This document shows, one piece after another, positions 2,042-34,755 of a DNA stretch of 59,658 nt. This DNA comes from Aplysia californica (taxonomy: Eukaryota), in assembly GCF_000002075.1 (NCBI RefSeq), contig NW_004797275.1:2541319-2600976 (forward strand), in the 5' to 3' direction. The notes beneath the pieces were generated by a model, which worked only from the letters and a program-made list of their open reading frames with translations, made no database searches and was not told the origin of the DNA. The position numbers and the translations under genes are program-made. How positions within the stretch are numbered: the stretch's first letter is position 1; each line of letters begins with the position of its first letter.

Positions 2042-2060
2042 ACTGGTATTTTTTTAATTC

Positions 2061-14988: not shown

Positions 14989-15150
14989 GTCTAATAATAA
15001 ATGATAGGTAATATTTTGTATGTATGTGAAGCAGCGTAGTGAAATCAGGCGCTCGTCAAAATACAGAAATCGGAGAAACAGGTATTTTTCTCCCAGTTTG
15101 GACCCTTTTATCTAATTTTTTTTTCATTTTTTTGGCTCAACGTCTCTTTG

Positions 15151-15374
15151 GTTTTTTTGGTTTTGTAAAGTGTTTTTACGGCGCTCGCAACTGCATAAGG
15201 TCATATGAGCGCGCAGGACACACTAATATTTTCAGTTGGTAGGAAATTTTGCCCGGGTGGTGGCCGAAGCCTATAAGATAAGATAAGATAAGATACATCT
15301 GTATTGTCCAGATCCTGGCACATTGGTTTGGTGTTCCACATTGGTTTGGTGTTCCACCACGAGTACACACACAC

Positions 15375-15419
<45 letters not shown>

Positions 15420-16899
15420 TGCACGCACATGCACACACAAGTAGGCTTACAATCACATACATAATATAAATGAGCAGCAATATAAACGATAATAATCGTA
15501 AGCTAGATACACACTCAATGTTATTTTGATGCATGCTCTAAGGTCGTAAGTACACTAAACAAGATGGTTAAGATGGAAGCATTTTGATAGATGATGGTAA
15601 AAATGACCTTCTGTAACTTTCTTTGTTACAGATCAGAAGTATGGGTCTTTTACTTCTGACTGATGTTTTTATTTGAGGGAACAAGGGATGTTTGTTGTCT
15701 AAAAAGATGGAATTAATTTTCTTAGTGCAAGCTGTTATGTACAATTCATCCAAGTACGGGAATGAAGATGTTGAAATTTTACATGCTTTCCGTATTAGTC
15801 GATTTAATTTTTCTTTATCTTGTTGTCTTGTGTTCCCGGCCCATGCTGTTATACAAAAATTGATCTTACTTTCTATGGTTGAATGGTAGAACATGGACAT
15901 CAATGTTTTATCAACTTTAAAATACTTTAGCTTTCTAAGAAAAAATAGTCTTTTGTTCACTTTTTTATGCAGGAGAGAAGTGTGGACACGCCAGTTGAGT
16001 TTGTTGTCTATTGTAACACCCAAATACTTATAGTCTGACACTTGCTCGATGTTTTCACATTTCATTTTGAGTGGCTGCAGGGGCAGTTTCTTTATTCTAA
16101 AATCAACGACAAGTTCTTTTGTTTTTTTCACATTTAAAAGCAGCTTATGATTTTCACACCATTCAGAAAAATTAAGTACAAAATTCCGGTAAGCGGTTTC
16201 GTTATGGTCAGCCTGAATTAGCCCAATTATAGCTGAATCATCTGCAAATTTTATCAACTTGATGTTACTGTTGTTTATTTGGCAATCGTTCGTGTATAGT
16301 GTGAATAAAACTGGTGACAAAACACATCCTTGAGGGGCCCCTGTATTTGTTGTGATGTATGTCGATGAAGAATGTTTTAATTTTACATACTGGGTTCGGT
16401 TGGTAAGAAAATTGCCTATCCATGATATTAAATTGACGTTAACACCTATGTTTTCTAATTTCTTTAAAAGGATAGCTGGCTGGATAGTATTAAAGGCTGA
16501 CGAAAAATCAACAAACAGGATCTTTAAGGGATCTTTAACGTGCGCAGCTTGCACACAGGCCCTCCGAGATTTTTCGCCCTTGTCCGAGAAGGCTAGGTGT
16601 AGATCTTTCCTACCAGAAGATCAGGGGTGTGGCAGAAAGACAGCAGTAAGGAGGAGCCAAGGAGTAGCAGTAGAAAGGCTGCAGAAAGAGTCAGGAGCCC
16701 AGAGGAGGGGGCAAAGGAGGTGAGGGGGTGGGGGCAGAAAGTGGAAATGAAAGCAGACGACAGAACATGGCAAGAGAGCGGGAAAGGAGGTGAAAGGAGA
16801 CAATTTTAGAGAAGAAAATTTTTTGGTCGCTACCCGGATTTAAACCCGAGACCTTTGAATGAGAGTCCTACACCTTAACCTCTAGGCCACGAGAGCCCC
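15151..16899 (-). mobile_element. tRNA-derived SINE carrying the Nimb LINE 3' tail, interrupted by a Rex LINE
   Basis: Minus-strand head ggctctcgtggcctagaggttaagg...gggtttaaatccgggtagcgacca (boxes A and B, 16897-16824); tail gcgcgctcatatgaccttatgcagttgcgagcgccgtaaaa (15214-15174); TSD-like ctcaacgtct / ctcaacatct. Confidence 0.75.
15272..16550 (-). mobile_element. Rex1/Babar-type LINE, 5'-truncated, RT C-terminal half open (ORF 15568-16554)
   Basis: LFVDFSSAFNTIQP, TGAPQGCVLSPVLFTLYTND, KFADD, NVKKTKELVVDFR, YKYLGV; (CA)n 3' UTR; (ATAAG)n tail. Confidence 0.92.
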
Positions 16900-17259
16900 C
16901 TCAACATCTTTATGTCCGTATAAAAACATATTTCCATTTGAATTTTTTTTTTTTTTTATTTGTTAAATGCACAAAAATTGTCATTTTTTTGTTTTCAAGG
17001 ACTCTTTAGCTATAGATTTAAGAGTTACCAAACTTTGGTGATCATTTTACGGCTAATTTCACTTCTGAGACCATGCAACCTCCTCCTCCTTCAATCACAA
17101 ATATTACGACTTGTATTAACGATAAATGGATAATTTTTAAACTATAGTAAGACCAATGAAAAAGCTTTAAGATGATACCAATAAAACCCCATATGCTCCA
17201 AATTTGACGAGCGCCTGATTCCACCATGTCATGACATATATATATAAATATATATATAT

Positions 17260-17656
17260 GTGTCAGGATGCGATGGAATAAGGCGCTCGTCTATTTTTGG
17301 GCATATGGAGTAATTGGTATCATCTTAAAGCCTGATCATTTGCCTTGCTTTGAATGAAAAAATATCTTTCTATCTTGAATAGAAATCGAGATATTTGTGA
17401 TTGAAGAAGGTGGGGGTCACCGGGTTCAGAGTAAAATTAGCAAGAAAATGGCTGCCACAGTTTGGTGACTTCCATAGCTTACGGGTCTTTGATTACTTTG
17501 AAAACCCTTAAATCAACATCTTTCGGTAAAATCCACTAAAAGATGTTGGGCCAAAAAACAAAAATTCGATAAATATTTTGTCAAACCAGCAAAAAAATGC
17601 TGGTTTCTTCAATTTCAGTATTTTGACGAGCGCCTGATTTCACCAAGGTGCCTCAC
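17260..17656. mobile_element. GTG...CAC TIR MITE, same family as 33921
   Basis: gtgtcagg...tggaataaggcgctcgtc ... gacgagcgcctgatttcacc...cctcac; sits next to an (AT)n run. Confidence 0.8.
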
Positions 17657-17780: not shown

Positions 17781-17877
17781 ATGAAGATTGCAATCATTGG
17801 TGGAGGAATCGCAGGACTGACGTGTGCAGCAAGACTAGGCCAGCTTGGCATATCAGATGTAACAGTCTTTGACACTG
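17781..17877 (+). CDS. Renalase-like FAD/NAD(P) oxidoreductase, coding exon A (Rossmann dinucleotide-binding motif)
   Basis: MKIAIIGGGIAGLTCAARLGQLGISDVTVFDT-G; GxGxxG; donor G|GTAAGC at 17878 (phase 1). Too short for the ORF track. Confidence 0.9.
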
Positions 17878-17918
17878 GTAAGCATCATCAAGCAGTAGGC
17901 TGCAGACAACCATATTAA

Positions 17919-18157
17919 CCCTATCCATACGTCTTGTTTTACTATCGTATCCATACAACGTGGGGAACTCTGTGCCACCACTTTCCAAAAAGGAAATTTG
18001 CTCTTTGATCCGATCCGTACGCTTTGCATAGCAGTCTGTCAAAATTATTTTTTGAGAAATACTGAAAGTTTCAAAGAGATCGTCGTACTAGAAGTATTCT
18101 AAAATGTGAAGAATACAACCCCGGGGTACAAAATGACCCCAGGGCGTACGGATAGGG
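17919..18157. mobile_element. piggyBac-like MITE
   Basis: TTAA|ccctatccatacg ... cgtacggataggg|TTAA. Confidence 0.85.
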
Positions 18158-19274
18158 TTAAACAGATTCATGAGAAAGAAAAATGGGGTCTCAGGTCTTA
18201 AGCGCTTAAAGCTCAAGCATTGTTTACAATTTTCAATGAGTGAAGAGGGCCCTAATTTTCTTACCCTTAGAACAGTGCTTTTTAGTAAAATAATAACTAT
18301 AAAAAGCAACCATATCATTATGTAACAAGAGCCTTTGAAATGGCATAAAATGCTTTTCACTTCTGTATAATATATGAGTTTAAGATTGACACCCTACTAG
18401 ATGCACAAAGATCATTTTGAAAGGGGGCGGGGATATAAAAGAACCATTCAATCAGCTGATCAGCATGAAAAAGGGGGATAAGAACACTATAGTATGCAGA
18501 AAAGGTGCAACCCCTTTGACATATAGAGACTTGGAAAGTTTCACCATATGATGGTGATGCAGCAGAATGTTTATATCTCTCAGCATGTTCAGGGGTCAAT
18601 CATGATTCATGAGATGTGAGAATATTAAAAGCATAAAGATAAAATTTTCATTTTGATTGCACAGTGTCAATTGTAAACAGTCGTGGTAACATTAAGTATG
18701 ATTTTAAAAGACAATGGTAATTGTCTCAAATTTGATTATTTAAAAAGAGCCTCCTCAAAGCAATGGAAAAAAGACAACCTCAACTTGTTGACATGCTTCT
18801 CTCAAAATAGGACGCACTAATTTGTTTTCATTCATTACTTCACCCGTTGCATTCATTCCACACTTTTGCTCTGATGACTAGTGGGGATCTCAGTTTCTTC
18901 TCTTTAAATAAATGGTTTTTAGTCCTTCAAGCAGCTCCATGTAGTGTTTGGACTCTTTGAGCTTATGAAGTCCTTAGTACATGATGTTCTCAGATTTCTT
19001 AAGCAGTTGTTAAAGACAAACACAAAGATAACATTGACTTTTAATGTGCCATATAAGATAATAATAGAACAATGTCATCCCTTCAGAGGCTGAAATGACA
19101 AATAAAGAGGCGCTTGGGTTTGGGGGGTCTGTGCCAGTTTGATTTTACTAACTTTTGGCAGGATTTGGAATACAGTCTTTTAAGAAATACTTGTGGCAGT
19201 TACTGTTCTGATGGATTTACAGTGGTTCATGTTGTTTCAAATTAAACATGTACATTTTTCCCCCCATAAAACAG

Positions 19275-19502
19275 GCAAACATGCAGTCGGTGGAAGATGC
19301 TCAAGTCGCATTGTAAACATCAATGGGCAGCTGTCAGTGTTTGACCACTGTGTGCAGTATTTCACAGCTAGTGACCCCAGGTTCAAAAAGATCTTGAGCT
19401 ACTTGATCAGAGATGGTGCAGTGACACAATGGAAAGGTCCAGTCGGCCATCTTCAGAGAGGAAGATTTCAGGCTGATTCACAATTTACTCAAGCTTATGT
19501 TG
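19275..19502 (+). CDS. Renalase-like oxidoreductase, coding exon B
   Basis: cag|GC AAA...: KHAVGGRCSSR...FDHCVQYFTASDPRF...WKGPVG...AYV; donor G|GTAAGT; 228 nt, phase 1-1. Confidence 0.92.
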
Positions 19503-21269
19503 GTAAGTAGAAGATAGCTTTGAAAATTTTGAAATTTTATTACAGTCCAGCTAACTCACAGCAAAATCAGCAGGTAGCGGAAATCTTTTTGTGCTCAAAT
19601 TTTAAATATTTAGAATATAATACATCATGATAATAATGATAATAATAATTATAATTGCATCTTTTATATAAGTATTATATATAGTGCATATCCAGGCTCT
19701 ACAGCATGCTCTAATCGCTTTACAATTATAGGCCTACATGTATAAGAAAAAATCTGAGACCTGAAATTCTGTTTGCTGTCATACACGTGGTTTGCTATGC
19801 GTGTGCTAAACTGTACAGTCAAATCCCATTATACCGCCTATGTTGGGAAGAGCATGAAGTTGGAGGTACAGCAGGGCTGGAGGTACAATGAGGTTTTCAT
19901 GTCCCCTGCTAAATACATGGGTGAGTCCTCACTAAATAAAAGCCCCACAGGAATTCATCAGCTTGTAAGTTTTTGGGCTGATATCTGGCGATGCCGGATT
20001 TTTGGGGGGGTTTGGGGGGGGGGGGTGAGATGGCGAGGTCACTTAAAAGTTTCTCCAGGTGACTTAAATAGTCAGATTCGCGCGGAGAGCGAAATTTGAT
20101 GCTGAATTACAAAGTTATATTTTATTTTAAATGTACTCTTCTATATTACACACATTGTATTGTGTTTGCTTTTGACACACTACATCACCGTAGATCTATC
20201 TATCCATTTTTCCTGAAATCTACAAGACAAGGGTGGGGAGGAGAGTTGCACAGGGAGGGAGCAAATTAGAGAAAAGTGTTTGATCTAGACCTAGGCGCTA
20301 GCTTGTTGAGACGTGTGTGAAAGTTTGTCTAGCAACCACAGAGTGGATGTGCCATGCACTGTGTGTAGCCAAGTGTGTACTGTGTATTTCTGGTGGCCAG
20401 TTCGCTGGCGATGTACACCTGAGACAGATGGCTGATGGCGGTGTAAAGGCGCAAATACTGTGTTTATATAGGGGATTCTTTTTCGTACATTGGCAAAACC
20501 TGGTGGTAAGCGGGGCTGGGGGTTCAACAGAGGGGAAGGGGTACATGGAGGGGAGGTTTGACTGTATATATTTCCATATATAGTAGCATGAACCAGTACT
20601 GAGTGGATGCATTCTGCATAACGTTTGATAGCTTTAGAATGTTGTTGGAAATTTTCAAATTTGATTTGACCATTTCTATTAAATGGATGCCATGTCAGAA
20701 GATAGAACAATTAAGACAAGTTTTTATAGACACCTACATGAAGCACTAACATTATGTGCAGTAATAGTAGTCCTTTAGATTGTTTAATCATGCAGTAAGT
20801 ATCAAATTAACATCACAGCATTCTCAGACTGGTTTCCTCCTTGATATGTTCAACTGTATCTAATTACTGGTCTTATGGTTGGTCAAGTGATTGTAGCAAT
20901 AACTTGTGATTAAAGTATGAGTTCTCAGATTTATGAGTGCCTTTGCTTACTTTCATTCTCATTAGCATTCTTATTTGTCTGCCTGGAAGATATCATTTGC
21001 TGGAAAGTCTTTTTTTATTTGTTGACATTCTACAGTTTGAAAATTCTGTAAACTCTCAATGTCAGACTGTATATTTAAAGCAGTTTGTTTTGTTTTTCAA
21101 AAGTTTTAAGAAGTTGTCAAAAATTTTCTGCATTTCAGATTATACCCCTTGGAGCTGATTGTGTTATTCTCATTATATTTCAAATAAGCAGGGTTTTTTC
21201 TCTTGCTCATCAATATCTGCATGAGATTTTTGCATTTCTATTAAAAGTTTATTCTGTTCTATGTCGCAG

Positions 21270-22034
21270 GTGTGAATGGCATGAGGTCAGTCCCTGAAAG
21301 CCTGGCAAAGTTCTGCAAAGTTCAACGACCAGCATGGGTCAGTACTATTCAGTTTGACTATCACCTAAAGAAATGGACTGTTGACAAATGGGGTGTATAT
21401 GACTTTGTAGTCATTGCTCATAACGGGAAGTGCGCTGCTAAACTGACAGAAAATGCTGGTGCTCCAGAAATCCACAGGCTTTGTCATACACGTTTTGCGT
21501 CTCGGGTTAATCCCAAGGACAGTCGCATGACGTTGTGTTCATTGTTTGTTCTCATGGTGGCTTTTGAGCGCTCACTTAAGTTACCCTACGAGGGAGCTCA
21601 TGTAGCCGACAGTAACATCTCATGGATAGCCAACAACTCGGCCAAACTCAAAGGTACATCTTCATCTTCAGGGATTTTGCCAGGAAATAAATTGGAATGC
21701 TGGACAATTATCAGTTCTAAAAATTTAGCAGAGCAGAACAAAGTCCCCCAAGAACACATACCTCAGAATGTGGAAAAACGAATATCTGGCATCATGCTGG
21801 AATCTTTTGCAGAAGCAACTGGACTTAAAGGGAAGCTGCCAGTTGTACACTTTCAGAAACTACAGCTATGGGGAGCGGCCGTGCCCCTGAACACATTAGC
21901 CACCGGGTCTGAGTGTGTCTTTGATGCCCAACGTCAGATTGGAATCTGCAGCGACTGGTTGGTCAGTCCCTGTGTTCAGGGTGCAGCAGTCAGTGGACTG
22001 GCCTTGGCAGAAGCAATTGGATCCTGTATCAAAG
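21270..22034 (+). CDS. Renalase-like oxidoreductase, coding exon C
   Basis: cgcag|GT GTG AAT GGC ATG: NGMRS...VIAHNGKCA...SWIANNSAKL...QLWGAAVP...GICSDWL...AAVSGLALA; donor AAAG|GTATTG; 765 nt, phase 1-1. Confidence 0.92.
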
Positions 22035-22109
22035 GTATTGAACTTACTCTTGCCTTTGCTTAAGATTGTTTTGTTGTATTTCTATAGTTATTCCAAATGC
22101 GATGTAGGC

Positions 22110-22515
22110 TGATGGAAAATTTGATCCTACCCCCCAGGGCGGTGTTACTGACTGAAGTATCTTTAGCCCATTCCCAAAGGGGGACATTAACATGTTCTTA
22201 TGCTCAGTAGAATTGTAAATGGGCTGATTCATCAATGTCGTGCTCATAACTGTGCCTGAACTGCATACGGGGAACTTCTGCTTTTTCTTTCCTAATTCTT
22301 ACTATCATCATTTTTTCTCTACTTCTTTTGTATGTTTGTCTCTCTTTTGTGACCCGCTATTTCTGGGTGCCTTGATAGTCAAAGCAGACTTTGTGCTGTT
22401 GAAGTTAGAGAGGTGAGCAGAGTAAGCCTGATTCCCTGTATAGACTTCTCTGTTGACATCCACCCATTGGCACTCATGTGACCTTATGCAGTTGCGTCGC
22501 CGTAAAAACTCTACT
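22110..22515 (+). mobile_element. Non-coding retroelement (SINE-like or LINE 3' UTR) ending in the Nimb-type tail
   Basis: About 380 bp reverse-complementary to 24607-24990; ends cactcatgtgaccttatgcagttgcgtcgccgtaaaa. Confidence 0.75.
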
Positions 22516-22694
22516 AAAACGAAGCAAACAAGAGATTGATCCACTGTGCGCAAACAGTAGGTTCATCAACTGCTATTGTGCTGAAATAGCTTTAACAGAT
22601 ATCATTTTCCACCAGACTTTCACATATCTTTGGCTAGCTGTTCAAATGTACTAAGCCCAAAATTTTGAAGAAATTTTTTATTGCAGTTCCTTAA

Positions 22695-22934
22695 CCCTAT
22701 CCGTATGCACTGGGGTCATTTTGCACCCCCGGGGTTGTATTCTTTACATTTTAGAATACTTCTAGTGTGAAGATTTCTTTGAATCTTTCAGTATTTCTCA
22801 AAAAATCATTTTGACAGACCACTATACAAAGCTTACGGATCGGATTAACGAGTAAATTTCTTCTTTGGAAAGTGGTGGCACAGAGTTCCCCACGTTGTAT
22901 GGATCTGATAGTGAAGCACGATGTTTGGATAGGT
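22695..22934. mobile_element. piggyBac-like MITE, inverted copy of 17919-18157
   Basis: TTAA|ccctatccgtatgc ... ttggataggt|TTAA; internal sequence matches the reverse complement of the first copy. Confidence 0.85.
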
Positions 22935-23634
22935 TTAATCTGTGCTGTCGGTTGCATATGCTCAATAAATAGTTTGTCAAAACTCAAATTGTAATGTTGA
23001 AAACAAGTTACATAAAATAGGTACAATTGTTAAAAGAATGAAACAGTTTTTCCTCTCAAGTGAAAAATGTTGCTTTTTTGGACATTTGAACAGCTGACGA
23101 CTATATGTGATTGTTACTTTAATATTTTTCTTTAAGGCTTTTCGGTTTCTTTCTCATTCATGTTTCCTTTATCCTACAGGCTAAGTCCTCTACCTTCTAA
23201 ATGATGAAGCCTGATTCGTTGATTAGTAGTGGAGTGTTCATCTCACCAAAATACTGAAACAATTCTTTCCCTTACTCCTGTGATTTTTCTTTTACCTTTG
23301 CATTTTTATGCATGTTTTTTTTTTTTATGTCCATAGGATAAGTCAAAGTGATTTGCAACTTCCATTGCATTTCATAACTTAAACTACTGTTCCAGATTTC
23401 ATAATGGAGTAAAAAATGTGCAGCATCTTTAGAAAGTTTTGCAATGAGATTATTTCACTCAAAACAATAGAAGGATGAAAATCATATGGGTTTTTTTATT
23501 ATTATTATTATTGATAAGACACAGAATGATGCAAGACTCAAATTAATTGTTCACCTTTGTAACTTTTTCAAAATGGTGATATAGACTTACCCATGTTGCC
23601 TAATTAGTTATTTTGTTTCTTATCTTTTTTTTAG

Positions 23635-23711
23635 GGAACAAGTCAAGCACCAGTTTACAGCCATTGTTCAAAGAAGAGAGTCAGAGCAACCCTATCGGAG
23701 CCTTTCCATGA
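23635..23711 (+). CDS. Renalase-like oxidoreductase, terminal coding exon D
   Basis: Branch-like cctaat, long T tract, ttag|GG AAC; phase 1 matches exon C; reads G-NKSSTSLQPLFKEESQSNPIGAFP*. AATAAA near 23945. Spliced CDS A-D is 1167 nt (388 aa). Confidence 0.75.
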
Positions 23712-24606
23712 TTACCTTCTGTGGCAGATCTAAGCGCACAGAGGTACCTCAACTGCTCAGCTCTACCCCAACAATAATGGGGACACCTAGTCTACCTGTA
23801 ATGGGTTGGACTTGCAATTTTTTTTTAATTGTAAATTTGAATCGCTTCTTAGCCAGATAGGGCATTGCAGCTTTTAGGAATGTACTTTACCTCCTATTCT
23901 TCTGTTTACCTTGCAACGAATGGGTACGTATAGCTGGTGGTAGAAATAAAATACATTAATGATAATGCTTTGTGTCGAACGAGCTGCAATTTTGTACATC
24001 AACGGAAAGAAGCCTTTTGCAGTTTTCACAAACGATTTGGTTTTTGTTTCATTAGTTACTATTTCTCAATTGATATTGTTCCTCTGTCAGTACTGTTTAT
24101 TTTTTTCTTTCCAGATTTTAAAAAGAAGTGCAATTTTTATACGCAGTCTGGCATGTGTTATACTCTTGTGTATATAATGGAGAAACAATGGATAACAGAG
24201 AGGTCAGGATAGACTGGTTTAATGAGCTGTTGTAGCTAGGTGAACACTGTTGTACGACTTTTCAGTATGTTGTTAGTGAGTTTTAGGCTTCTGGACATTA
24301 GTAATGATTCATGTTCGCATTACAATGAATTACACGTTATAAATTACAGCTATGTAACATCTCCCTTTTCAAATCTGGACCCTCTGTATAATCGGAAATG
24401 GAATGAGACTCTAGTTACTTTTCCACTTATAATTAATTTAATACTGGAATACTGAGTCCACTTGACTTAATTATTTGAACTTCCATCTCAGTGTTTGTTT
24501 TCGTAGCCACTATGTGAACTTCACAATTTCACAATATAAAACTGACTAAATCAGACTTCAACTGTTCATAGGTTTCACACCATGATTCATGTTATTGTCT
24601 AAGTAA

Positions 24607-24990
24607 GGTTTTACGGCGCTCGCAACTGCACAAGGTCATATGAGCGCCAAGGGGTGGATGTCAACAGAGAAGACCAAACTGGGAATCAGGCTTACTCTGC
24701 TCACCTCTCTAGCCTCAACAGTACAAAGTCTGCCTCGACTATCAAGGCACCCCGGAAATAATAGTTCGCAAGAGACTGACAAACATACAAAAGAAGTAGA
24801 GGGAAAATGACGATAGTAAGGATAAGGAAAGAAAAAGCAGCATTTCCCCCTATGTTGTTCCAACACAGTAGGCATATAAGCATGACATTGATAAATCAGC
24901 CCATTTACAATTCTACTGTGCATAAGAACATCTTAATATCCCCCCTTTGGGAATGGCCTCCAGACAATTTCAGTCAGTAGCACTGCCGGT
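24607..24990 (-). mobile_element. Second copy of the Nimb-tailed non-coding retroelement
   Basis: ttttacggcgctcgcaactgcacaaggtcatatgagcgcc plus a body matching 22110-22515 in inverted orientation. Confidence 0.75.
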
Positions 24991-27954
24991 AGAACTGTTG
25001 TTGTCATACAGAACTAAATATAACTTTTACACTGTTCGTAAAACTGTAGTTTTCATACAAAACTGAATTTAACTTAAACACTGTTTGTTAACTTAACACT
25101 ATGATTACACCTAAGTTGTGAATCTGAATTAAATGTCAACTGTTCCTAGATTACACACCGTGATCATTTTAGCCCACACCATTGTTAAATTTAATTGTCT
25201 CTGTATCTATGAGGTTTTTGGATCACTCGACCAGGTCTTGTGGTTTTCATAGGTTCTTGCTCTGAAGCTCGAATTTGTTGCGATGACACCAGATCTTGAA
25301 GTGCCAGCTCTTGCGGTGGGTTTGCTGGTGTAGACCTATCTCCTTGTCCCTCAAGAATGTCATTCGAAAGGGTTGGTTGTCCTCAGGTCATGGTATTTCT
25401 CTTTAGTGCACATCAAGTGTTGTCTGTTACGGCGCTGCACTCCATACTTCGTTTTGATGGTGAATGAACGAGGGGTTGCTGCTTTGGTGATCACTTGTTC
25501 TGGTTCCCATGTACAATTACACCTGTACCTAATAAAGTCACAGGGTTCATCTCTGGTAACTTGTGGGCATTCTGGTCATGCCTCTGCTTCACTTTTCTGT
25601 TACAGTTTGTCTTGCTTTTGGTTGACATAGTCGGCAGCAGGATTCTTAATTTCCTGCCCATAAACAACTCTGCAGGAGATTTCGAATTTGATTTGGGTGT
25701 TGTTCTGTAGTTCAGGGTGGCGAGATTTGTGTCTTCCCCGCTTTCCTTGGCCTTCTTGAGCAGCTTTTTTACTGTCTGAATATTCCTTTCGATAAACCCA
25801 TTGGCTCTTGGGAAATTAGGGCTTGTTGTGACCAGCTGAATGTTCCACTGTGTTGTGAAGACTCTGAAATGGCATGATGAAAATTGTGGCCAATTGCCGG
25901 AGATCAAAGTCACAGGAACGCCATGTCGCACACAGATGATTTTGAGCTGTGTGATCACATGGCTGCTGGTGGTTGTGTCTAGCTTGCAGACCTCAAAATA
26001 CTTTGAATGGTAATCGCAAACGAGGAGGTAGTCTTTGCCTTGCAATTGAAACAGCTCTGTGGCAAGCTTCATCCATGGCTGATCTGGGATGTCATGTGGT
26101 AGTAAAGGTTCGTTCTGTTGGGCATTCTTGTTGCATCGGCAAGTGCCGCAGCTGTTGACTGTTTCTGCAATCTGTTTCAGGCCAAAAGACTGCTGATTTT
26201 GCTCTGTTTTAGGATAATTCTTTTCCAAGATGTCCTTCATGTATGAGTTTCAACATTTCTTTCTGTAGACATTCTGAAAGGATCAACTGATCTCCTTTGA
26301 GCAAGATTCCATCACATTCTGTTAGTCCTCACAAATCGCCCAGAACTGTTTTATTTCTTTGGGTACTTTGTGCATCAAGTCTAGCCATTCTTCCGTCTGT
26401 GTTCTGAGTTTCTTCAGTGTCTCATCTTGCTTTTGCTTCTCCTTGATTTCTTCGAGTTGTTGAGGTGTTACGTGTAATCAGTTGACTACAGCGTCCACAA
26501 AGGCTTTCACTTCTGTGTCTGGGATTTCTGGTTCTTCTGTTGAGGAATAGCTGCTTTCTGTCTCTCTTGACGGTGTCAGACAACGCTTTTTCCTTTCCCT
26601 TCTTGTATGAGACTTCTAAGTCATACAACTGCATTCATAATAGGAATCTCTGGATCCTTGCTGTACACCTGTTCTAGGGTTTCTTCATAATGGCGACAAT
26701 TGGCTTGTGGTCTGTCCACATTTGACTTTTTCATCCATCCACGTACTGGTGAAACCGTTCCAGAGCTAAAACGATTTCCTGTGTTTCCTTCTCAATCTGA
26801 GCATATCGCTGTTCATCTGTTGTAGGGCTTCTCGATGCGTATGCAACTGGTTGATCTTCTTGCAACAGAACTGCCCCTAGGCCATCTTTGCTGGCGTCGC
26901 CTTCTATTGTAACAGATGTCGTTACGTCAAAGTGGCGTAGAGATGGACAAGACGACAGTGTGTTCTTTGGGTTTTTGGCAGCTTCGCCGTGTTTCTCTGT
27001 CTATTCCCATTCGTTGTCTTTTTCTAGCCACTCTCTTCAGGGTGCTGTTTCCTTGGACATGTTTGGGATGAACTTCATCAGATAGGTCACCATACCCAAG
27101 AGTCTCATGAGTTCTTGCTTGTTCTTGGGTGTTTGCATGTTTTTGATGGCAGACACGTTCTTCTCATCCACTGTGATGTCGTTTTCTGTGAGGTTGTGTC
27201 CCATGTACGTCATCTGTTCTTTGAGAAAGTCACATTTGTTGGTGTTGAATTTCAGCCCATATTCTATTGCTCTCTTGAAGACTGCTTCTAAGCGTTTCAT
27301 GTGCTCTTCAATTGTGCTGCTCCACACTCAGAGATCATCGTCGTAGCAGGCTACACCGTCCAGGTCACCAAAGAACTTGTCCATTGTGCTCTGGTAGACT
27401 TCAGGTTCTGAGGAGATTCCAAATGGCATTCTCAGAAACCTCCATCTTCCAAAAGGTGTTGAGAAGGTGCACAGTTTTGATGATTCTTCGCTCAGCGGGT
27501 TTTGGTAGAATCCACTTGAGGCTTCCAATTTGGAGTAGTACTTTGCCCCAAACATCTTTGTTGATACGCCCTGAACAGCTGGAATTTGGTAGTACTCTCT
27601 TTTCAAAGCTGTGTTCAGTCTCTGTGGGTCTGGGCACAATCTTACTTTTCCATTGAGCTTGTTGACAACTATAATTGGATTGACCCTGTCAGTTGGCTCC
27701 TCTTCTTTGGTGATGACACCTAGTTGTTGTTTTTTTCATTCTTCATGGTTCTGCCTCAATTTTTCCTCTTTGAGAGTATATGATCTTTTTTTGTTGCTGC
27801 TACTATAATAGGCTCAACTTTGTCATCCTCTCATGGTGCACTCTGTGTGTAGCTTGCCCGATTCTCCAAATGCATCCTTGTATTCTGTGAGCATTTCTTC
27901 TAGTCACTTTTATTTGTGTTTGATCTCGTAACTTGTAGCAGCAAACTTGAACTT

Positions 27955-28177: not shown

Positions 28178-31100
28178 CAAACTTGAACTTCAATCAGGAA
28201 CACAGGAGTCTCGTCTAGGGTCGAACATAAGCAAGTAATTTATTTATGATCAATATGTAAAAGGAACCATGCCTTCACAACAGGTTAGAGTATTTACATG
28301 TTACAGAGTACATGCCTTTATTAATAATTGACTCTCACACGTCTCAGTCATTCTCACATAGAATATTATTACAACACCAGCCTAGTGGTACACGTTGACT
28401 AAGATATAAAATACAAAAATGACATATTATGATAATGAAAATGTCATAAACCGACATGGAAGTGTTTCTACAAAGGGTAACATCTAAATAACCAATGTCC
28501 TGCTAAGGGAATGAAATAAGAGCAGGTCTAATTAGTTCCCTTACATAATACCTCCCCTTCAGTCTGAAGGTATCTGAAGACTAAAGTGTTCCCAGAAGCA
28601 ATCACAACCTGAGAAATGTCAAAGTTCACAATATGTCCATGTCAAGGCTGGTGACGTGCGCGTCGAGGGCGAAGTTGATCCTCATGTCGTCTCCTCATCG
28701 GGCCGTCTCGTAACACATGGACCTCATAGAGTTTGTGACCCAGAAAGGCGGTCACCACAGATGGCTTCCATCTGTCCTTACGCCCACATTTGTAGGAAAG
28801 CGCGAAGCATGGGCTGTCTTTGCTGAGACGACGAGCAGGCTCATCTCGAACTTAGAGTGTAGTCTGCCTCTGCGCTGGGATGATGACGCCGAGCTACGTA
28901 CGGATCTGATGTCCTGTCAGGAGCTCACTGGGACTTTTACCGCTGGCCAGCAGTGTGCGGCGGTAGTGTATGAGAAACCCCTGAAGGGCGTCCGCGGGAA
29001 GCAAGTCAGACTTCTTGAGAGACTGCTTAAAGGTCTGGACCAGTCTCTCGGCTTCTCCGTTCGTCTCAGGGTGGTAGGGGGCTCCGTGCAGGTGTTGACT
29101 GCCCTGCTGCACACACCAGGTCTGGAACTCGGCTGACGAGAAACAGGTGGCGTTGTCTGTCACAATGGCGTGTGGATAGCCAAAGTGAACAAAGTCCTCG
29201 TCGAGCCTCCGGGTGGTCGTCTTGGTTGTTATAGAGGACATGAGGTGGGTGCATCAATATGGACGGGGCTCCAAGGTTCGTCGAGGGTGATCTATGGGTG
29301 AGACGGCTGCTTAGGGGGCAGTCTCTGGTGCTCGTTGCAAGTTGTGCAGTGTCGAGCGGCGTCTTCGATATCGGCATCAATGCATGTCCAGTAGACAGCA
29401 GTGCGGGATAACTGCTTCATTCTCTGCATTCCGAAATGTCCCAGGTGCAGGATCTGGAGGACCTGGGATTGCATAGTCTTTGGGGTCGCCACTCTGTGGC
29501 CGTGGAAAATGCAGCCATTCGACAGAGACAAAAAGTCTCGAAGAACGTAGAAAGGTTTCATTTGGTCACCGAAGTTCTTGGGCCAGTTGCCTTGCAGGTG
29601 GTGGATCGCCTTGGTTAGAGCAGGGTTTTTGGATGTTTCTCCCTCTAAAACCTTCGGATTTGCAAGTGCGATTTGGCTGCCGATCAGTTTTATGGTGCAA
29701 ATAGTTGCTGAGTCTGCACCAGTCTCCTCCCTGTCAAAGGATGGATCCGCCCCTACTGGCAATCTACTCAGGGCGTCTGATGTCTTGCGATATTCTATGG
29801 AGTAGTCGTATTGGCTCAGAGTGAGGGCCCATCTGGCTAGTCGATTTGCTGCCAGAGCTGGAATTGGCTTCGTTGGTCCATAGAGGGCAATCAGCGGCTT
29901 GTGATCCGTCACCAGGATGAAACGTCGTCCGTAGAGAAACTGGTGAAACTTGTTGAGACCGAAAATGATAGCCAGGGCCTCCTTCTGAATTTGGCTGTAT
30001 CTTCTGTGGGTCTGCGTCAGTGTTTTTTGAGACATTGGCAATGGGTCTCTCACTGCCATCACTGTATGTATGAAACAGGACACAGCCAATTTCCATGTCT
30101 GATGCATCGCAGGATATTCCCACCTCCAACGTAGGGTTGAAGTGGGCCAGGACGGTGTCAGCACTCAGTCAGTCTTTGATATGTTGAAAAGCTGTCTGTT
30201 CAGGCGCACCTCACTGCCATTGAGTGTCTTTCTTTGTCAGACGGTACAACGGTTCCAGGATAGTCGACAGGTTTGGAAGGAATTTGCTATAGAACTGGAC
30301 TTGGCCTAAAAAAATCTCACGCTGGACACGTTGGATGGTGCTGGCATCTGCATGATGGCGTCTGTTTTTGGATCTTTTGCAATGCCGTTCTTGGAAAGGT
30401 AGTGTTCTAGGAACTCTACGTGGGGCTGAGCAAAGAAGCACTTCTCTAACTGGCAGCGTAGTCCTTTGACTTGTAGACGCTGGAACAGGCCTCGTGGGAT
30501 CTGCAGGTGTTCCGCCGTCCACTGCATTGTTGCCGCTGACAAGGATGTCCTCCATGTAGACTGCAACACCAGGCAGGTCTTGTGTTAACTGGTCCATGAT
30601 TTCTTGGAAATAACCGTGATCCCAGGTTATTCCAAACAGCAGGCGTTTCTGTAGCAGGACGCCTATGTGAGTGCTTAGGGCAAGCTTCTTCTGCGACTCT
30701 GGGCCAAAGCAGATCTGGTTGTATGCGTCAGCGAGGTCAGTCTTCGTGAAATAGTGGCCTCGACCCAGTCTCCGCATGAGATCCTCCGGTTGTGGCATCG
30801 GGTGACGATGTGTCTCCAGTTGCTGGTTCACAGTGACAGAGTAGTCACTCATACTGCTCTGACCTTGTGTAGACTTCTTATTGATAGGTACCACTGGCGT
30901 ACTATATGAGTTGAACTGGACTGACCCCCAGATACCTTTGTTGATGCCGGCTTGAATGGTACTATCCAGGTCTTCCTGTACTGCAATAGGTACTGGGCGA
31001 GGATTGTGAAAGACTGACTGGACGTCTGGCTTGAATCAAACCTCCAGCTGGAAGTCTTTGGGTGTCCCCAGCCCTTTCTTGAACGAGTCTGGGAACACCT

Positions 31101-32820
31101 GACATAGTTACTGGTTGGAGCTCTGCAGGGACATATCAGGCTTAATGTCTTGGAGGACTTTGTTGACTTTGTCGTACAGGAGCTGGTCCAGGGATAGACC
31201 TAGGCTTCTGCATGATTCTCGGTCGAGGAGGTTCAGCTGCAGACGGGTGACGACGAACTTTTGTTGTTCGCGTTTGTCGTCCTTAGCCAACGTAGTTGGG
31301 ACTGTGATGACTCCGAGGACAGGAAGGTCTTGATCAGAGGCACACCGGTACTGGCTGTTGGTCTATTTGGCCTATTGAGCAGGTGCCATGTGTTCAAAGA
31401 GATAAAATTATCTCTGGAGCCGGTGTCGACCTATAGCTGGACTGGATGCCCCGATATATAGCACTCTTAGGTTCTGGGCTTGATGCTTGAACTCTTGATC
31501 GTCTTCACAATCGTGACTCGTTGGCTTTTTTTCTTTCGGCATGCCGCCTCAATGTGGCCCTTGATGTTGCAGAAACAGCATGTGGCAGTGGCAAAACGGC
31601 AGCTGTCAGATGTAAGGGCTCCGTCACATCTGGTGCAGCGTTTCTGTTGCAGCCATTTCTTCTCGTGATGAGACTTGTGTTGAGGTGTTGTCTGCTTAGG
31701 CCAGGACGGCTTTCCTGGCGCTCGTCTCTGCGACTGCCCGACTTTGTGGACGGCCGTGTCCTGAGACGTTAATGTCTCTTTTGCGACCTTTGAAGCCTCC
31801 TCTGCCTCTGCTGCAAGTTCGATGGCGCTGGCGAAGGTCAGCTCGTCGTCTTTGATTTTAAAAAGGGCTTTACTGGTTGCCTCGTTGTGGATGGAGCAGA
31901 CAAACCGAGTCCTCATGGCTTCGTCCAGCGGGTCAGGGTCACTGATAGAGGCAGAATCGCAGGTGGCAGCTTCTTGCCTGATTCGGGCTGCCAGTTCGTT
32001 GACAGTCTCCCCTGGCTTCCTCTATGTGTTGGTCCAGAACTTGAGCTGTTCTCGTACTATGAAGCGTTTAGGGTTGTATTGATCTGTCATGTAGGCTGAG
32101 ATCTCCGTCATTGACAGACTGTTGATGTCCCTTGGTGGCGACTGTTGCTGGGCCAGATTCATCAGCAGTTTGTCGCCGACACTGGACTGGTTAGTGAGGA
32201 ATATTTCTGCGCGCTGATCGTCTGGAATAGCGTTAGCCTGTGTGAAGGTTTCGAACCTGGCACTTACATGACCAAAATTGAGTCGATAGTGCCGTAAGAC
32301 ACCTACTCAATCAATCAAAAATCAGAATCTGAACCAGTAATCCGACCAGAGCTCGATAGAGAGGTCGAATTCTCCAAACTTCGTGCTTATGACCGTCTTC
32401 TTCTACTAGACTTCGGCAAGTAACACCTCCATCTGCTGCTGCCGTTTACTCTCATCTGTTCTCGCAGCAGTTTGATCAACTCATCCTGGGACTGTGAGCG
32501 AGACATGACGACTGGTCTCTGACCGGCAGCAGCTTGTTCTGTCGCTAAAGTTATGTTTTACGGCTCACGCTTTCTCGGTGTTCTGTTCTTAGAAGAACAG
32601 GGAAAAGCACGAGACGTTGGTCGGCCTTTTGACACGTTTCACTTTTCTCGCTGTTTTGTCCTAAGATTAAGAAGGACAGGAAACCAAACCAGACGTTGAT
32701 CGGCTAAGTTTGACACGTTTCACTTTTCTCGTTGTTTTGTCCTTAGAAGGACAGGAAATTACAACAAGACGTTGACCGGACAAGGTTTCGAACTATGCAC
32801 GCTCTCCTGCTAAAGTATAA

Positions 32821-33050: not shown

Positions 33051-33920
33051 TTTTTCTGCTTAAGTATGGAAGTGGTGGTTTGGTTTCAACAGAGGACAAC
33101 AAGGATTGAGATTGGGTTTAATGTCTGTTAGGCGCGAGAAGAACGCCCGACCGACAGTACCTTTAGGCCCCGATCATCAGAAACTTCACTTGACCGGTTG
33201 GAGGCTCTAAAAGTAAATAAATACGACCGCCAAGGACCCTTGACGTCAATAAAAGCAAGTAATGAGGATAGAAATTGAGAGCGTGCAAAAAAATTTGACC
33301 AACTACGGATGGGGAAAGTCGAGATGATAAGTGAAACGTGTGTAGACTTTAGACTATGAGCAGGTGATAAGTCTTTGTAGACTTATCGTAACTTGATCCG
33401 TATACGAACAATAATTTTTCACCAACCTGTCTTCTCGATGTTCCCCAGGCTCCTGTGTCGCTTCCCAAGGCTTAGGAAGGCTTTCTTGCTTCGTCGAAGG
33501 CTTGTTGCAGAGGCAGGCAGCTTGGCTTGTATCTGGACCAGTCAGCTGGGCTGTGCTGTGTAGAGCAGGCTTGGCTTGGCTGTGTTTGTTTCAGCAAAGG
33601 AGCCAACGGGTCTTGGTCTTGCTTGCTCGTAGATCCTATCCTCGTCGCCGATGTTAGATCTTGTAACTTGTAACAGCAAACTTGAACTTCAACCAGGAAC
33701 ACAGGAGTCTCGCCTTGGGTCGAACATAACCAAGCAATATATTTATGATCAATATAATGTAACAGGAACAATATCTACACAACAGGTTAGGGTATTTACA
33801 TGTTACACAATACATGTTTTCTTTAATAATTGACACATACGTCTCAGTCATTCTCACATAGAATATTATAACACCAGCCTAACGGTACACTTTGGCAAAG
33901 AAAATACAAACATGACATAT

Positions 33921-34480
33921 GTGTCACGACGAGGTGGAATCAGGCGCTCGTCAATTTTTGAACGTGTGGAGTTATTTGTAACGTTTTAAAGCTTGTTCAT
34001 TGGTCTTGCTTTCGGTGAAAAAAATACTCATCTATCATGAATAGTAGTCGAGATAATCTGCGATTGAATGAGATGGGGATTGATTGGTTTCAGAGGCAAA
34101 ATTAGCGAGAAAATGGCCATCAAAGTTTGATGACTTTCAAAGCTTGAGAGTCCGTAGAAACTTAAAATTTACATTTTTTAAATGTCTTTCATCAATGGCT
34201 TTCAGTGAAATGGACCCATAAATGTGTTTTTAAATTGACGAAAAAAGTGTTGACAAAGGTAACTCCGATAGAGAGAGATTTGTTGGGGGGGGGGGGGGGG
34301 GTGCCTTAAATCAACATTTTTCAGTAATATTCACACAGAAATCTTTTAACATGGAGGTTAATGGTGTTGAGTCGAAAAACAAAAATTCGATTTTTTTTAA
34401 ATTGCCAAATGGACAGAAAATTGTCAGTTTCTTCGATATCATTATTTTGACGAGCGCCTGATTTCACCACGATGTCTCAC
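33921..34480. mobile_element. GTG...CAC TIR MITE inserted in the 5' LTR
   Basis: ATAT|gtgtcacgacgaggtggaatcaggcgctcgtc ... gacgagcgcctgatttcaccacgatgtctcac|ATAT; empty site gacatatta near 28422. Confidence 0.9.
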
Positions 34481-34755
34481 ATATTAGGATAATGAAAATG
34501 GCATAAAACATTGAAATGTTTCCACAAAGGGGAACAACATACTAACCAATGTCCTGCTAAGGGAATGAAATAAGAGCAGGTCTAATTATTTCCCTTCCAA
34601 AAACGTTTGATCTCATCTAGTCTTTTCACAAGCTTCAGTTGTTCACTTGTCTGAAGACCTATTATTGTTTTTGCTCCATCCGTTGAGGTGACGATGAACT
34701 TGATCAATGTTTTCTTTTACTTGTGAGTGCACTTGAGTTTTGTCTGGTCCTCCTC

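What the first reader, a model, noticed from the sequence alone, without database searches (positions are those of the whole stretch)
17781..23711. Spliced plant-type renalase-family oxidoreductase in an animal genome
Seen: four GT-AG-joined exons, all introns phase 1, giving a 388-aa flavoprotein. From my recollection (not a search), its motifs VFDTG.H..GGR, WKG.VG.L, NGMRS, RP.WVS, VIAHNGKCA, NNSAKL, QNKVPQE.IP, QLWGAA.P.NT and terminal IG.FP match the uncharacterised Arabidopsis At3g04650-type subfamily far better than vertebrate RNLS. Established: renalases oxidise 2- and 6-dihydro NAD(P)H isomers (metabolite repair). Inference: either an ancient eukaryotic gene patchily retained in animals or an old horizontal transfer from algae. 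This would be especially notable in an algivorous or kleptoplastic slug. The introns and flanking animal TEs argue against contamination.
Basis: partly seen in the sequence, partly recalled or inferred. Interest (0 to 1): 0.7.

Follow-up and report, generated by a model that had tools for sequence, protein, structure and literature searches.

The report
Uncharacterised renalase-like enzyme shared with algae
This is an ordinary, long-inherited animal gene, also found in other molluscs, amphioxus and amphibians, for an unstudied flavin enzyme whose other known relatives are in algae and plants; it is not a recent theft from a food alga, though its distant origin and substrate remain open.

Summary
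The gene model is real: four exons, three GT-AG phase-1 introns, 388 aa, intact. It is not vertebrate RNLS; its fold is nearer Pseudomonas renalase. But it is not a plant-type oddity of one slug. Named orthologues come from 31 animal genera (15 molluscs, a nemertean, amphioxus, 14 amphibians). It is 65% identical to Lymnaea against about 40% to land plants, and nests among gastropods inside an animal clade (100/99). Grouping with the land-plant clade or with Bryopsis is rejected (p-AU 9.5e-9 and 5.9e-5). Recent or kleptoplast-linked transfer and contamination are excluded. Two questions stay open. Origin: every named non-animal member is from a plastid-bearing lineage, so a transfer from algae before the protostome-deuterostome split is possible but unproven. 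Function: the FAD site is kept, but the Pseudomonas His232 and Arg280 positions are replaced family-wide. Algal members are fused to repair and RNA-handling domains. Most likely it is a damage-repair flavin oxidase, with 2-/6-dihydro-NAD(P) the leading but unproven substrate.

The parts
17781..17877 (+). Exon 1: start codon, GxGxxG dinucleotide-binding motif, adenine-ribose Asp31; ends phase 1 in Gly33
   Evidence: Pfam NAD_binding_8 E 6.6e-7, above cut-off
17878..19274 (+). Intron 1, GT-AG, 1397 bp; position apparently shared with bivalves and land plants
   Evidence: indirect evidence from break-points of relatives' ORFs and isoforms
17911..18161 (.). About 250-bp non-autonomous element bounded by TTAA-CCC...GGG-TTAA (piggyBac-like ends, recalled) in intron 1
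   Evidence: 88% identical to 22691-22942 in opposite orientation
19275..19502 (+). Exon 2: GGR motif and DHxxQY flavin-side motif
19503..21269 (+). Intron 2, GT-AG, 1767 bp, phase 1 in Gly109; several bivalve-clade genomic ORFs read through this position, so it is not universal
21270..22034 (+). Exon 3: family signature HNGKC, 12-residue insertion, WxxNNxxK, KVPQE, QLWGA, xDW
22035..23634 (+). Intron 3, GT-AG, 1600 bp, phase 1 in Gly364; holds host repeats (22138-22515, 22691-22942, 22934-23081)
   Evidence: copies at 24602-24987, 17911-18161, 401-560, pieces at 15133-15212 and 45457-45499
23635..23711 (+). Exon 4 coding part: C-terminal IG.FP motif and TGA stop
23945..23950 (+). Candidate polyadenylation signal AATAAA
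   Evidence: use not shown

Best explanation
The gene is the host's single (in this window) copy of an animal 'renalase-like' orthologue, a second renalase-fold family distinct from RNLS. It has been inherited vertically within animals since about the protostome-deuterostome split and lost from many lineages. The host is most likely a heterobranch-like gastropod (inferred from Lymnaea being the nearest named relative). Shown: intact spliced gene, FAD-binding motifs, renalase fold, membership of the animal clade, no N-terminal extension. Inferred: a cytosolic, FAD-dependent oxidase that takes a hydride from a damaged reduced nucleotide-type molecule and passes it to O2, giving H2O2, i.e. metabolite damage repair. 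The leading substrate is 2-/6-dihydro-NAD(P), as for both characterised renalases (about 0.4). A different nucleotide, cofactor or RNA-linked substrate is nearly as likely (about 0.3), because the substrate-side residues are replaced by a family-specific invariant set. Confidence in vertical inheritance within animals is about 0.9; the figure below is for history plus repair-oxidase function together.
For: Identity to 27 named animal proteins 48-65%, 40 land plants 39-43%, 8 bacterial-type 27-35%. Careful trees: window + P0005 + Lymnaea 100/100, with Babylonia 98/82 or 99/88; animal clade 100/99 in both. AU tests reject window + land-plant/green clade (p 9.5e-9) and window + Bryopsis (p 5.9e-5). 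Introns share repeats with flanking DNA. The model of the Lymnaea orthologue (pLDDT 94.2) matches Pseudomonas renalase best: Z 39.8, rmsd 1.7, 323 aligned; human renalase Z 33.3, rmsd 2.6; next family Z 30.5. The only two enzymes characterised in this fold group, though only distantly related, oxidise 2-/6-dihydro-NAD(P) (passages in PMC7660482; title of the Pseudomonas paper in its reference list). At3g04650 was recovered by ATP/PurB affinity (PMC3531887, section 3.5). 14 of 68 family proteins scanned carry an extra domain: 5-formyl-THF cyclo-ligase-like, AIG2/GGACT, AlkB-type, AKAP7 2H, RRM, MnmA/SufE, TatD.
Against: Positions matching Pseudomonas Thr185, His232 and Arg280 are Leu200, Ile256 and Val313 here. 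No His or Arg occurs at the latter two in any of the 85 eukaryotic family rows tabulated (that these residues contact the nicotinamide is recalled, and searches found no text confirming it). The H-R-W-x-Y strand becomes Q-L-W-G-A. The fused partners are mixed, come from unnamed algal-type or dinoflagellate proteins, and about half concern nucleic acids rather than small metabolites. Inside the animal clade the tree is not a clean species tree: amphibians group with an unnamed clade (100/94) and amphioxus with lophotrochozoans (97/91), and a chordates-only clade is borderline (p-AU 0.0498; 0.079 with the unnamed clade). The fold was predicted for the Lymnaea orthologue, not for the window's protein.
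Confidence: 0.6

Rival explanations
1. Deep origin A: the animal clade began as one ancient horizontal transfer from an alga into the animal (bilaterian) stem, then descended vertically. This is compatible with the best explanation and differs only in where the animal ancestor got the gene.
For: Every named non-animal member listed is from a plastid-bearing lineage (land plants, chlorophytes, Closterium, a 'Compso...' red alga, Guillardia, 'Fibroc...', an 'Amph...' dinoflagellate; the last three names are cut short in the output and completed from recall). No named fungus, choanoflagellate, sponge, cnidarian or amoebozoan is among the 3 x 120 rows listed. Animals sit among algal rows and share the insertion with them. 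At3g04650-YFP is in chloroplasts (PMC3531887). The motifs are absent from relatives in 185,579 prokaryote genomes (0 of 42 pattern matches confirmed). Such transfers have been argued for other genes (PMC3494510, passages).
Against: The nearest sisters of animals (P0203, P0148; 99/95) and P0047 are unnamed. Animals + second chlorophyte paralogue has only 82/50 or 94/93, and a clade of all green sequences excluding animals is not rejected (p-AU 0.152). The gene is loss-prone under any scenario. Only the best 120 of 174, 267 and 571 hits were listed, and the searches are word-limited.
Confidence: 0.4
2. Deep origin B: an early-eukaryote gene with at least two paralogues, kept vertically in animals and algae and lost from most other lineages.
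For: Family depth: 525 clusters at 50% identity score E<=1e-30, and most of the best 150 carry the HNGKC motif. Volvox africanus has both paralogues. The intron in Gly33 seems shared between animals and land plants. Deep nodes are unresolved.
Against: It requires loss in all named heterotrophic protists, fungi and non-bilaterian animals sampled. A shared intron would also survive a eukaryote-to-eukaryote DNA transfer.
Confidence: 0.45
3. The enzyme does not act on NAD(P)H isomers but on an RNA-linked or other nucleotide or cofactor lesion.
For: Remodelled substrate face with invariant HNGKC, KxxQE and LWGA. Separate fusions to RRM, AlkB-type, AKAP7 2H, TatD, MnmA and a 5-formyl-THF cyclo-ligase paralogue, the last in two places on the tree. 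That paralogue looks like the COG0212/MTHFSD type (motifs recalled; no canonical cyclo-ligase structure found); MTHFSD is described as a stress-granule RNA-binding protein (PMC5773659) and COG0212 as thiamin-linked (PMC4120688). RGG-rich tails in 21 of 174 tails against a shuffled mean of 10.1 and maximum of 16.
Against: The window's protein has no tail or fusion. 54 of 68 scanned proteins have no extra domain. Two of the fusions are single sequences and may be gene-model artefacts. Basic, Gly-rich tails are common in algal proteins.
Confidence: 0.3
4. Recent transfer from a food alga or kleptoplast donor into this slug or snail lineage.
For: Bryopsis, recalled as a sacoglossan food, has a 47%-identical homologue, closer than land plants.
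Against: Lymnaea 65%, bivalves and amphioxus 51-56%. Window + Bryopsis is rejected (p-AU 5.9e-5). Orthologues occur in frogs and axolotl.
Confidence: 0.01
5. Contaminant or chimeric assembly of algal DNA.
For: None found.
Against: Intron GC is 36-38%, like the flanks. Intron 3 shares repeats with four other places in the window. The protein is gastropod-like.
Confidence: 0.005

Closest known systems
Animal proteins annotated 'renalase-like' or uncharacterised (Lymnaea, Haliotis, Mytilus, Lineus, Branchiostoma C3Z5I..., Xenopus tropicalis XENTR_v10012784, Ambystoma)
   Same: Full-length 48-65% identity, all signature motifs, the same 36-residue loop in 27 of 27, one clade at 100/99; introns at Gly33 and Gly364 apparently shared with bivalve-clade genes.
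   Different: Like Lymnaea, it stops at IG.FP and lacks the roughly 12-residue tail of most other animals. It has Ser in place of Gly before the DW motif (also Lymnaea, 1 of 27). It starts directly at the first strand. None is characterised in any paper found.
Land-plant 'FAD/NAD(P)-binding oxidoreductase' clade (At3g04650 type; that Arabidopsis locus belonging here is recalled, its sequence was not retrieved)
   Same: HNGKC, NNxxK, KVPQE, QLWGA and IGxF motifs; 39-43% identity; apparently the same phase-1 intron in the DTG glycine.
   Different: Separate clade (100/97) that lacks the 12-residue insertion (40 of 40), has N-terminal extensions and, for At3g04650, chloroplast location. Window membership is rejected (p-AU 9.5e-9).
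Second chlorophyte paralogue (Bryopsis BSKO_08617, Sanguina, Volvox Vafri_8937)
   Same: Closest named non-animal group, 44-48% identity, shares the insertion.
   Different: Long Gly/Arg-rich C-terminal tails; sisterhood to animals only weakly to moderately supported.
Pseudomonas renalase (PDB 3KKJ, 4ZCC, 4ZCD, 5KRQ), 2-/6-dihydro-NAD(P) oxidase
   Same: Best solved match by sequence (E 6.6e-34) and fold (Z 39.8, rmsd 1.7; TM by target 0.89-0.91); Tyr57, Trp212, Asn216, Lys219, Trp276 and the DW motif are kept.
   Different: 24-27% identity. Thr185, His232, Tyr278, Arg280 and Arg308 positions are replaced. It lacks HNGKC, the insertion, the PQE loop and the C-terminal IG.FP segment.
Human renalase RNLS (PDB 3QJ4)
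   Same: Same compact fold (Z 33.3; TM by target 0.80).
   Different: 16-18% identity, rmsd 2.6-4.0, not among the best 60 sequence hits; a paralogous family, not an orthologue.

Membership tests
Renalase structural family | N-terminal GxGxxG fold with acidic residue and GGR motif for FAD | tested here: met
   G7, G9, G12, D31, R40 present and invariant in 27 of 27 animals; Pfam PF13450 above cut-off
Renalase structural family | Compact renalase fold, nearer to renalases than to MAO, PPO or LAAO | tested here: met
   Model of the Lymnaea orthologue: both renalases rank above all other entries in both searches
Renalase (enzyme class) | Substrate-side His and Arg as in Pseudomonas His232 and Arg280 (roles recalled) | tested here: not met
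   Ile256 and Val313; His absent from all 85 eukaryotic rows but in 5 of 8 bacterial-type rows. Arg280 is not constant even among the bacterial-type rows, so that position is a weak test
Renalase (enzyme class) | Oxidises 2- and 6-dihydro-NAD(P), not 4-dihydro | not testable with these tools
   Needs an assay
Vertebrate RNLS orthologues | Clear sequence affinity to human renalase | tested here: not met
   Not in the best 60 profile hits (E up to 0.15) while Pseudomonas gives 6.6e-34; 16-18% identity in structural alignment. No RNLS sequence was available for the tree
Eukaryotic HNGKC family (broad 'plant-type') | HNGKC, KxxQE and LWGA signature motifs | tested here: met
   All present; HNGKC in 27 of 27 animals and 40 of 40 land plants, 0 of 8 bacterial-type
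Land-plant (At3g04650-type) clade | Branches within or beside the land-plant/green clade | tested here: not met
   AU p 9.5e-9; separate clades
Land-plant (At3g04650-type) clade | Short 24-residue loop after HNGKC | tested here: not met
   36 residues here; 24 in 40 of 40 land plants and 9 of 9 green clade B
Land-plant (At3g04650-type) clade | N-terminal extension or plastid transit peptide | tested here: not met
   Protein starts at strand 1; no in-frame Met after the upstream stop
Land-plant (At3g04650-type) clade | Direct comparison with the Arabidopsis At3g04650 sequence | not tested
   No Arabidopsis row appeared among the listed hits
Animal 'renalase-like' clade | Monophyly with named animal orthologues, nested with gastropods | tested here: met
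   100/99 clade; with Lymnaea 100/100, Babylonia 98/82
Animal 'renalase-like' clade | Shared intron positions | tested here: inconclusive
   Only indirect: relatives' ORFs or isoforms break at Gly33 and Gly364; several read through Gly109. No eukaryote genome DNA was available
Animal 'renalase-like' clade | Conserved synteny | not testable with these tools

The most novel reading that the evidence does not exclude
An algal flavoenzyme entered animals by one ancient horizontal transfer before the protostome-deuterostome split and survives in molluscs, nemerteans, amphioxus and, alone among named vertebrates here, amphibians. It is not an NAD(P)H-isomer oxidase but the founder of an unrecognised repair activity on a nucleotide, cofactor or RNA lesion, now assayable in Xenopus, Chlamydomonas-type algae or Arabidopsis. 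A bolder variant not excluded by the trees (about 0.1) is that amphibians got their copy separately, since they group with an unnamed clade rather than with amphioxus.
Probability: 0.2. Interest if true: 0.7.

Novelty: new member of a known kind. Interest (0 to 1): 0.3.

Why it matters
As a finding about this genome it is ordinary: the orthologue is already in public annotations of many molluscs and frogs under the label 'renalase-like'. What remains useful is that this label hides a second, uncharacterised renalase-fold family, distinct from RNLS. It has an invariant but different active-site signature and an odd spread: plants, algae and a patchy set of aquatic bilaterians, including amphibians. 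Ten literature searches turned up no paper that characterises it or describes this spread; the library lacks most subscription journals. If its animal branch came from algae, or if it repairs something other than NAD(P)H isomers, it would be a new case of ancient transfer or a new repair enzyme, testable with one purified protein.

Tried and rejected
Alternative last exons: of 10 pyrimidine-rich acceptors after exon 3, only 23635 (and a weaker in-frame one at 23608) gives the family C-terminus; read-through of intron 3 stops after 9 residues. Pfam and NCBIfam give no family-level name: exon 3 has no Pfam match and only a far-below-cut-off NCBIfam match. The ESM Atlas with exon 3 returned only bacterial fragment clusters; with the Lymnaea protein it ranked streptophyte and chlorophyte clusters first, by structure and by features. 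A bacterial source was sought: 0 of 42 motif matches in prokaryote genomes encode a relative, and plasmid hits are 22-27% identical over full length (13 of 14). The taxa of unnamed hits, including the animals' nearest sisters, could not be obtained, so the donor question stays open. PMC3494510 (main text and 2 supplement files) does not mention renalase, amine oxidase or oxidoreductase. The supplement of PMC4046809 lists one Monosiga 'FAD dependent oxidoreductase' of haptophyte affinity (GI 167525936); whether it belongs to this family is untested, and no Monosiga-named hit appeared. No open text was found for renalase active-site residues. A diet explanation for retention (algal grazers and tadpoles) was considered and set aside: Lineus and Ambystoma are predators (recalled). 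FastTree trees and quick trees were used only for orientation. Metagenome and viral contig collections stayed unchecked. No complex prediction was run.


Full report
1. Observation. The window reads as animal DNA: AT-rich introns, LINE, LTR and DNA-transposon remains, and an intronless Cys-loop receptor ORF at 671-2053. The proposed gene is real. Exons 17781-17877, 19275-19502, 21270-22034 and 23635-23711 join through three GT-AG introns, each phase 1 within a glycine codon (33, 109, 364), into 388 codons and a stop. CDS GC is 46.5%, introns 36-38%. The joined protein aligns end to end with relatives, and exon 4 carries the family's terminal motif. Intron 1 and intron 3 each hold a copy of a 250-bp TTAA-flanked element (88% identical). 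Intron 3 also shares a 385-bp repeat with DNA downstream, and shorter pieces with three other places in the window. The gene is therefore part of the host chromosome.

2. Relatives. Exon 3 found 174 proteins among 1030 candidates, best 120 listed. Profile searches listed the best 120 of 267 and of 571. The top named hits are animal. Over the three lists 31 animal genera are named: 5 gastropods, 9 bivalves, a chiton, the nemertean Lineus, Branchiostoma, 13 frogs and Ambystoma. Full-length BLASTP identities are Lymnaea 65%, Haliotis 55%, Branchiostoma 53%, Xenopus 49%, Bryopsis 47%, Salix 40%; an unnamed protein, P0005, is 71%. No named fish, amniote, arthropod, nematode, echinoderm, tunicate, cnidarian, sponge, fungus or choanoflagellate is in the listed rows. 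Many rows are unnamed and the search is word-limited, so this is a pattern, not proof of absence. The exhaustive HMMER search gave 525 clusters at E<=1e-30. [quoted passage not shown] The motifs were found in no relative among 185,579 prokaryote genomes (0 of 42 matches confirmed).

3. Trees. With 71 rows and 381 columns under LG+C20+F+G4 (rows chosen by me from about 360 proteins held, most land plants and fragments left out), the window's gene groups with P0005 and Lymnaea (100/100), then Babylonia (98/82), inside an animal clade (100/99). Two unnamed proteins are sister to animals (99/95). A second chlorophyte paralogue (Bryopsis, Sanguina, one of two Volvox copies, plus an EukProt protein of unknown species) comes next with weak support (82/50; 94/93 in the 42-row LG+G4 tree). 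Land plants with the other green paralogue form a separate clade (100/97). AU tests on the 42-row set: window with the land-plant/green clade is rejected (p 9.5e-9), window with Bryopsis is rejected (5.9e-5), and all green sequences together without animals is not rejected (0.152). An indel agrees: the loop after HNGKC is 36 residues in the window and 27 of 27 animals, 34-39 in 9 of 9 second-paralogue and non-green rows, 24 in 49 of 49 land-plant and green clade B rows, and 22-23 in 8 bacterial-type rows. Against a tidy story: amphibians pair with an unnamed clade and amphioxus with lophotrochozoans; a chordates-only clade gives p 0.0498, and 0.079 when the unnamed clade is allowed in.

4. Introns of relatives (indirect). 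No eukaryote DNA could be fetched. ORFs called on genomic contigs and alternative isoforms break where introns lie. Six animal-clade proteins depart from the family at Gly364 with residues that fit a phase-1 donor. Four unnamed animal-clade ORFs and a Mizuhopecten isoform depart at Gly33. Linum and Euphorbia models show the shifted-frame reading of exon 1 joined at the same glycine, and Salicaceae and Closterium-clade models have insertions there. Several bivalve-clade ORFs read through Gly109 and break near residue 320 instead. So intron 1 looks old and shared with plants, intron 3 animal-wide, intron 2 more local. This is inference.

5. Structure and mechanism. The Lymnaea orthologue, folded on a 122-row alignment, gave pLDDT 94.2 and pTM 0.93. 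Foldseek ranks Pseudomonas renalase first (TM by query 0.73-0.75, rmsd 2.6-2.7, 24-25% identity), then human renalase (0.68-0.69, rmsd 4.0, 16%), then PPO and amino-acid oxidases. VIA-align gives Z 39.8, 33.3 and 30.5 in that order. By sequence profile Pseudomonas renalase scores E 6.6e-34 and human renalase is not in the best 60. FAD-binding motifs are intact, as are the positions matching Pseudomonas Tyr57, Trp212, Asn216, Lys219 and Trp276. The positions matching Thr185, His232, Tyr278, Arg280 and Arg308 are Leu, Ile, Ala, Val and Cys. His232 is absent from all 85 eukaryotic rows tabulated, while HNGKC, KxxQE and LWGA are nearly invariant (numbering; ligand roles recalled). Renalases oxidise 1,2- and 1,6-NAD(P)H to NAD(P)+ (passages of PMC7660482, PMC8669784, PMC12565349; the primary papers were seen only as citations). 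At3g04650 was caught on ATP/PurB resin and its YFP fusion is chloroplastic (PMC3531887, section 3.5 read); that this locus belongs to the land-plant clade here is recalled. Of 68 family proteins scanned, chosen mainly for length, 14 carry another domain: 5-formyl-THF cyclo-ligase-like (3), AIG2/GGACT (4, one also TatD), AlkB-type (3), RRM (2), AKAP7 2H (1), MnmA with SufE (1). On a quick tree these make about seven events, the cyclo-ligase-like fusion falling in two places. That domain resembles the COG0212/MTHFSD paralogue (recalled; one search found no canonical structure), described as thiamin-linked (PMC4120688, passages) or RNA-binding (PMC5773659, passages). I read this as a damage-control oxidase: hydride from a damaged reduced substrate to FAD, reoxidation by O2. 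The fold and cofactor site are shown; location in the cytosol, the chemistry and the substrate are inferred.

6. Comparison with what is known. It works like a renalase in fold and probably chemistry. It is not an RNLS orthologue and not a member of the land-plant clade. It is a member of the broad HNGKC family and of its animal branch, already annotated 'renalase-like' in public genomes. A review (PMC8391834, passages) cites earlier remarks on plant-renalase similarity and a cyanobacterial origin for RNLS, which concern RNLS, not this branch. PMC3494510 argues for 14 alga-derived families in Ciona without naming this one (passages and 2 supplement files searched). Supplements of other papers, and bioRxiv supplements, were not seen and could list the gene.

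7. Verdict. Observation confirmed; interpretation partly supported. The exciting version, a plant gene peculiar to an alga-eating slug, is refuted. What is left is a new member of an annotated but unstudied family with a patchy alga-plus-bilaterian spread and a remodelled active site. Ancient transfer from algae (about 0.4) and ancient retention (about 0.45) cannot be separated with the unnamed sisters in hand; the remainder covers more than one transfer. Interest 0.3.

Noticed in passing
window 671-2053 (-): Intronless 456-aa Cys-loop ligand-gated ion-channel subunit (Pfam Neur_chan_LBD E 5.3e-31, Neur_chan_memb E 6.2e-23), apparently intact.
   Followed up: partly
window 17911-18161 and 22691-22942: Two inverted copies, 88% identical, of a 250-bp TTAA-flanked miniature element in introns 1 and 3 of the same gene; they could pair in the pre-mRNA across exons 2 and 3.
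   Followed up: partly
window 22138-22515 and 24602-24987: A 385-bp repeat, 84% identical, in inverted orientation on either side of exon 4; a 40-bp end piece recurs at 15174, 45457, 50904 and 55453.
   Followed up: partly
window 16995-17492: Palindromic element of about 500 bp just upstream of the gene, with related copies at 33917-34481, 48281-48692 and 15025-15156.
   Followed up: no
window 35058-36527, 40204-40980, 15568-16620, 25491-26249, 29292-32021, 54954-59345: Transposon remains: hAT, P-element/THAP9-like TNP, an RT with ALKBH8_N domain, an integrase fragment, and LTR-type and LINE-type ORFs judged from the translations.
   Followed up: partly
proteins P0136, P0137, P0138, P0331, P0332: Unnamed animal-clade branch that pairs with amphibians (100/94); its taxon is unknown and decides how the amphibian copy should be read.
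   Followed up: partly
proteins P0204, P0337: Long-branch pair inside the animal clade in which the HNGKC, KVPQE and LWGA motifs have decayed; a possible neofunctionalised or inactive paralogue.
   Followed up: no
proteins P0342, P0269, P0270, P0244, P0253, P0298, P0258, P0218, P0344, P0351, P0354, P0250, P0277, P0230: Family members fused to cyclo-ligase-like, AlkB, AKAP7 2H, AIG2/GGACT, TatD, RRM or MnmA/SufE domains; a lead to the family's function and to that of COG0212/MTHFSD.
   Followed up: partly
protein P0016: Full-length 405-aa ORF called on a 286-kb contig, grouping with oysters: an apparently intronless copy.
   Followed up: no
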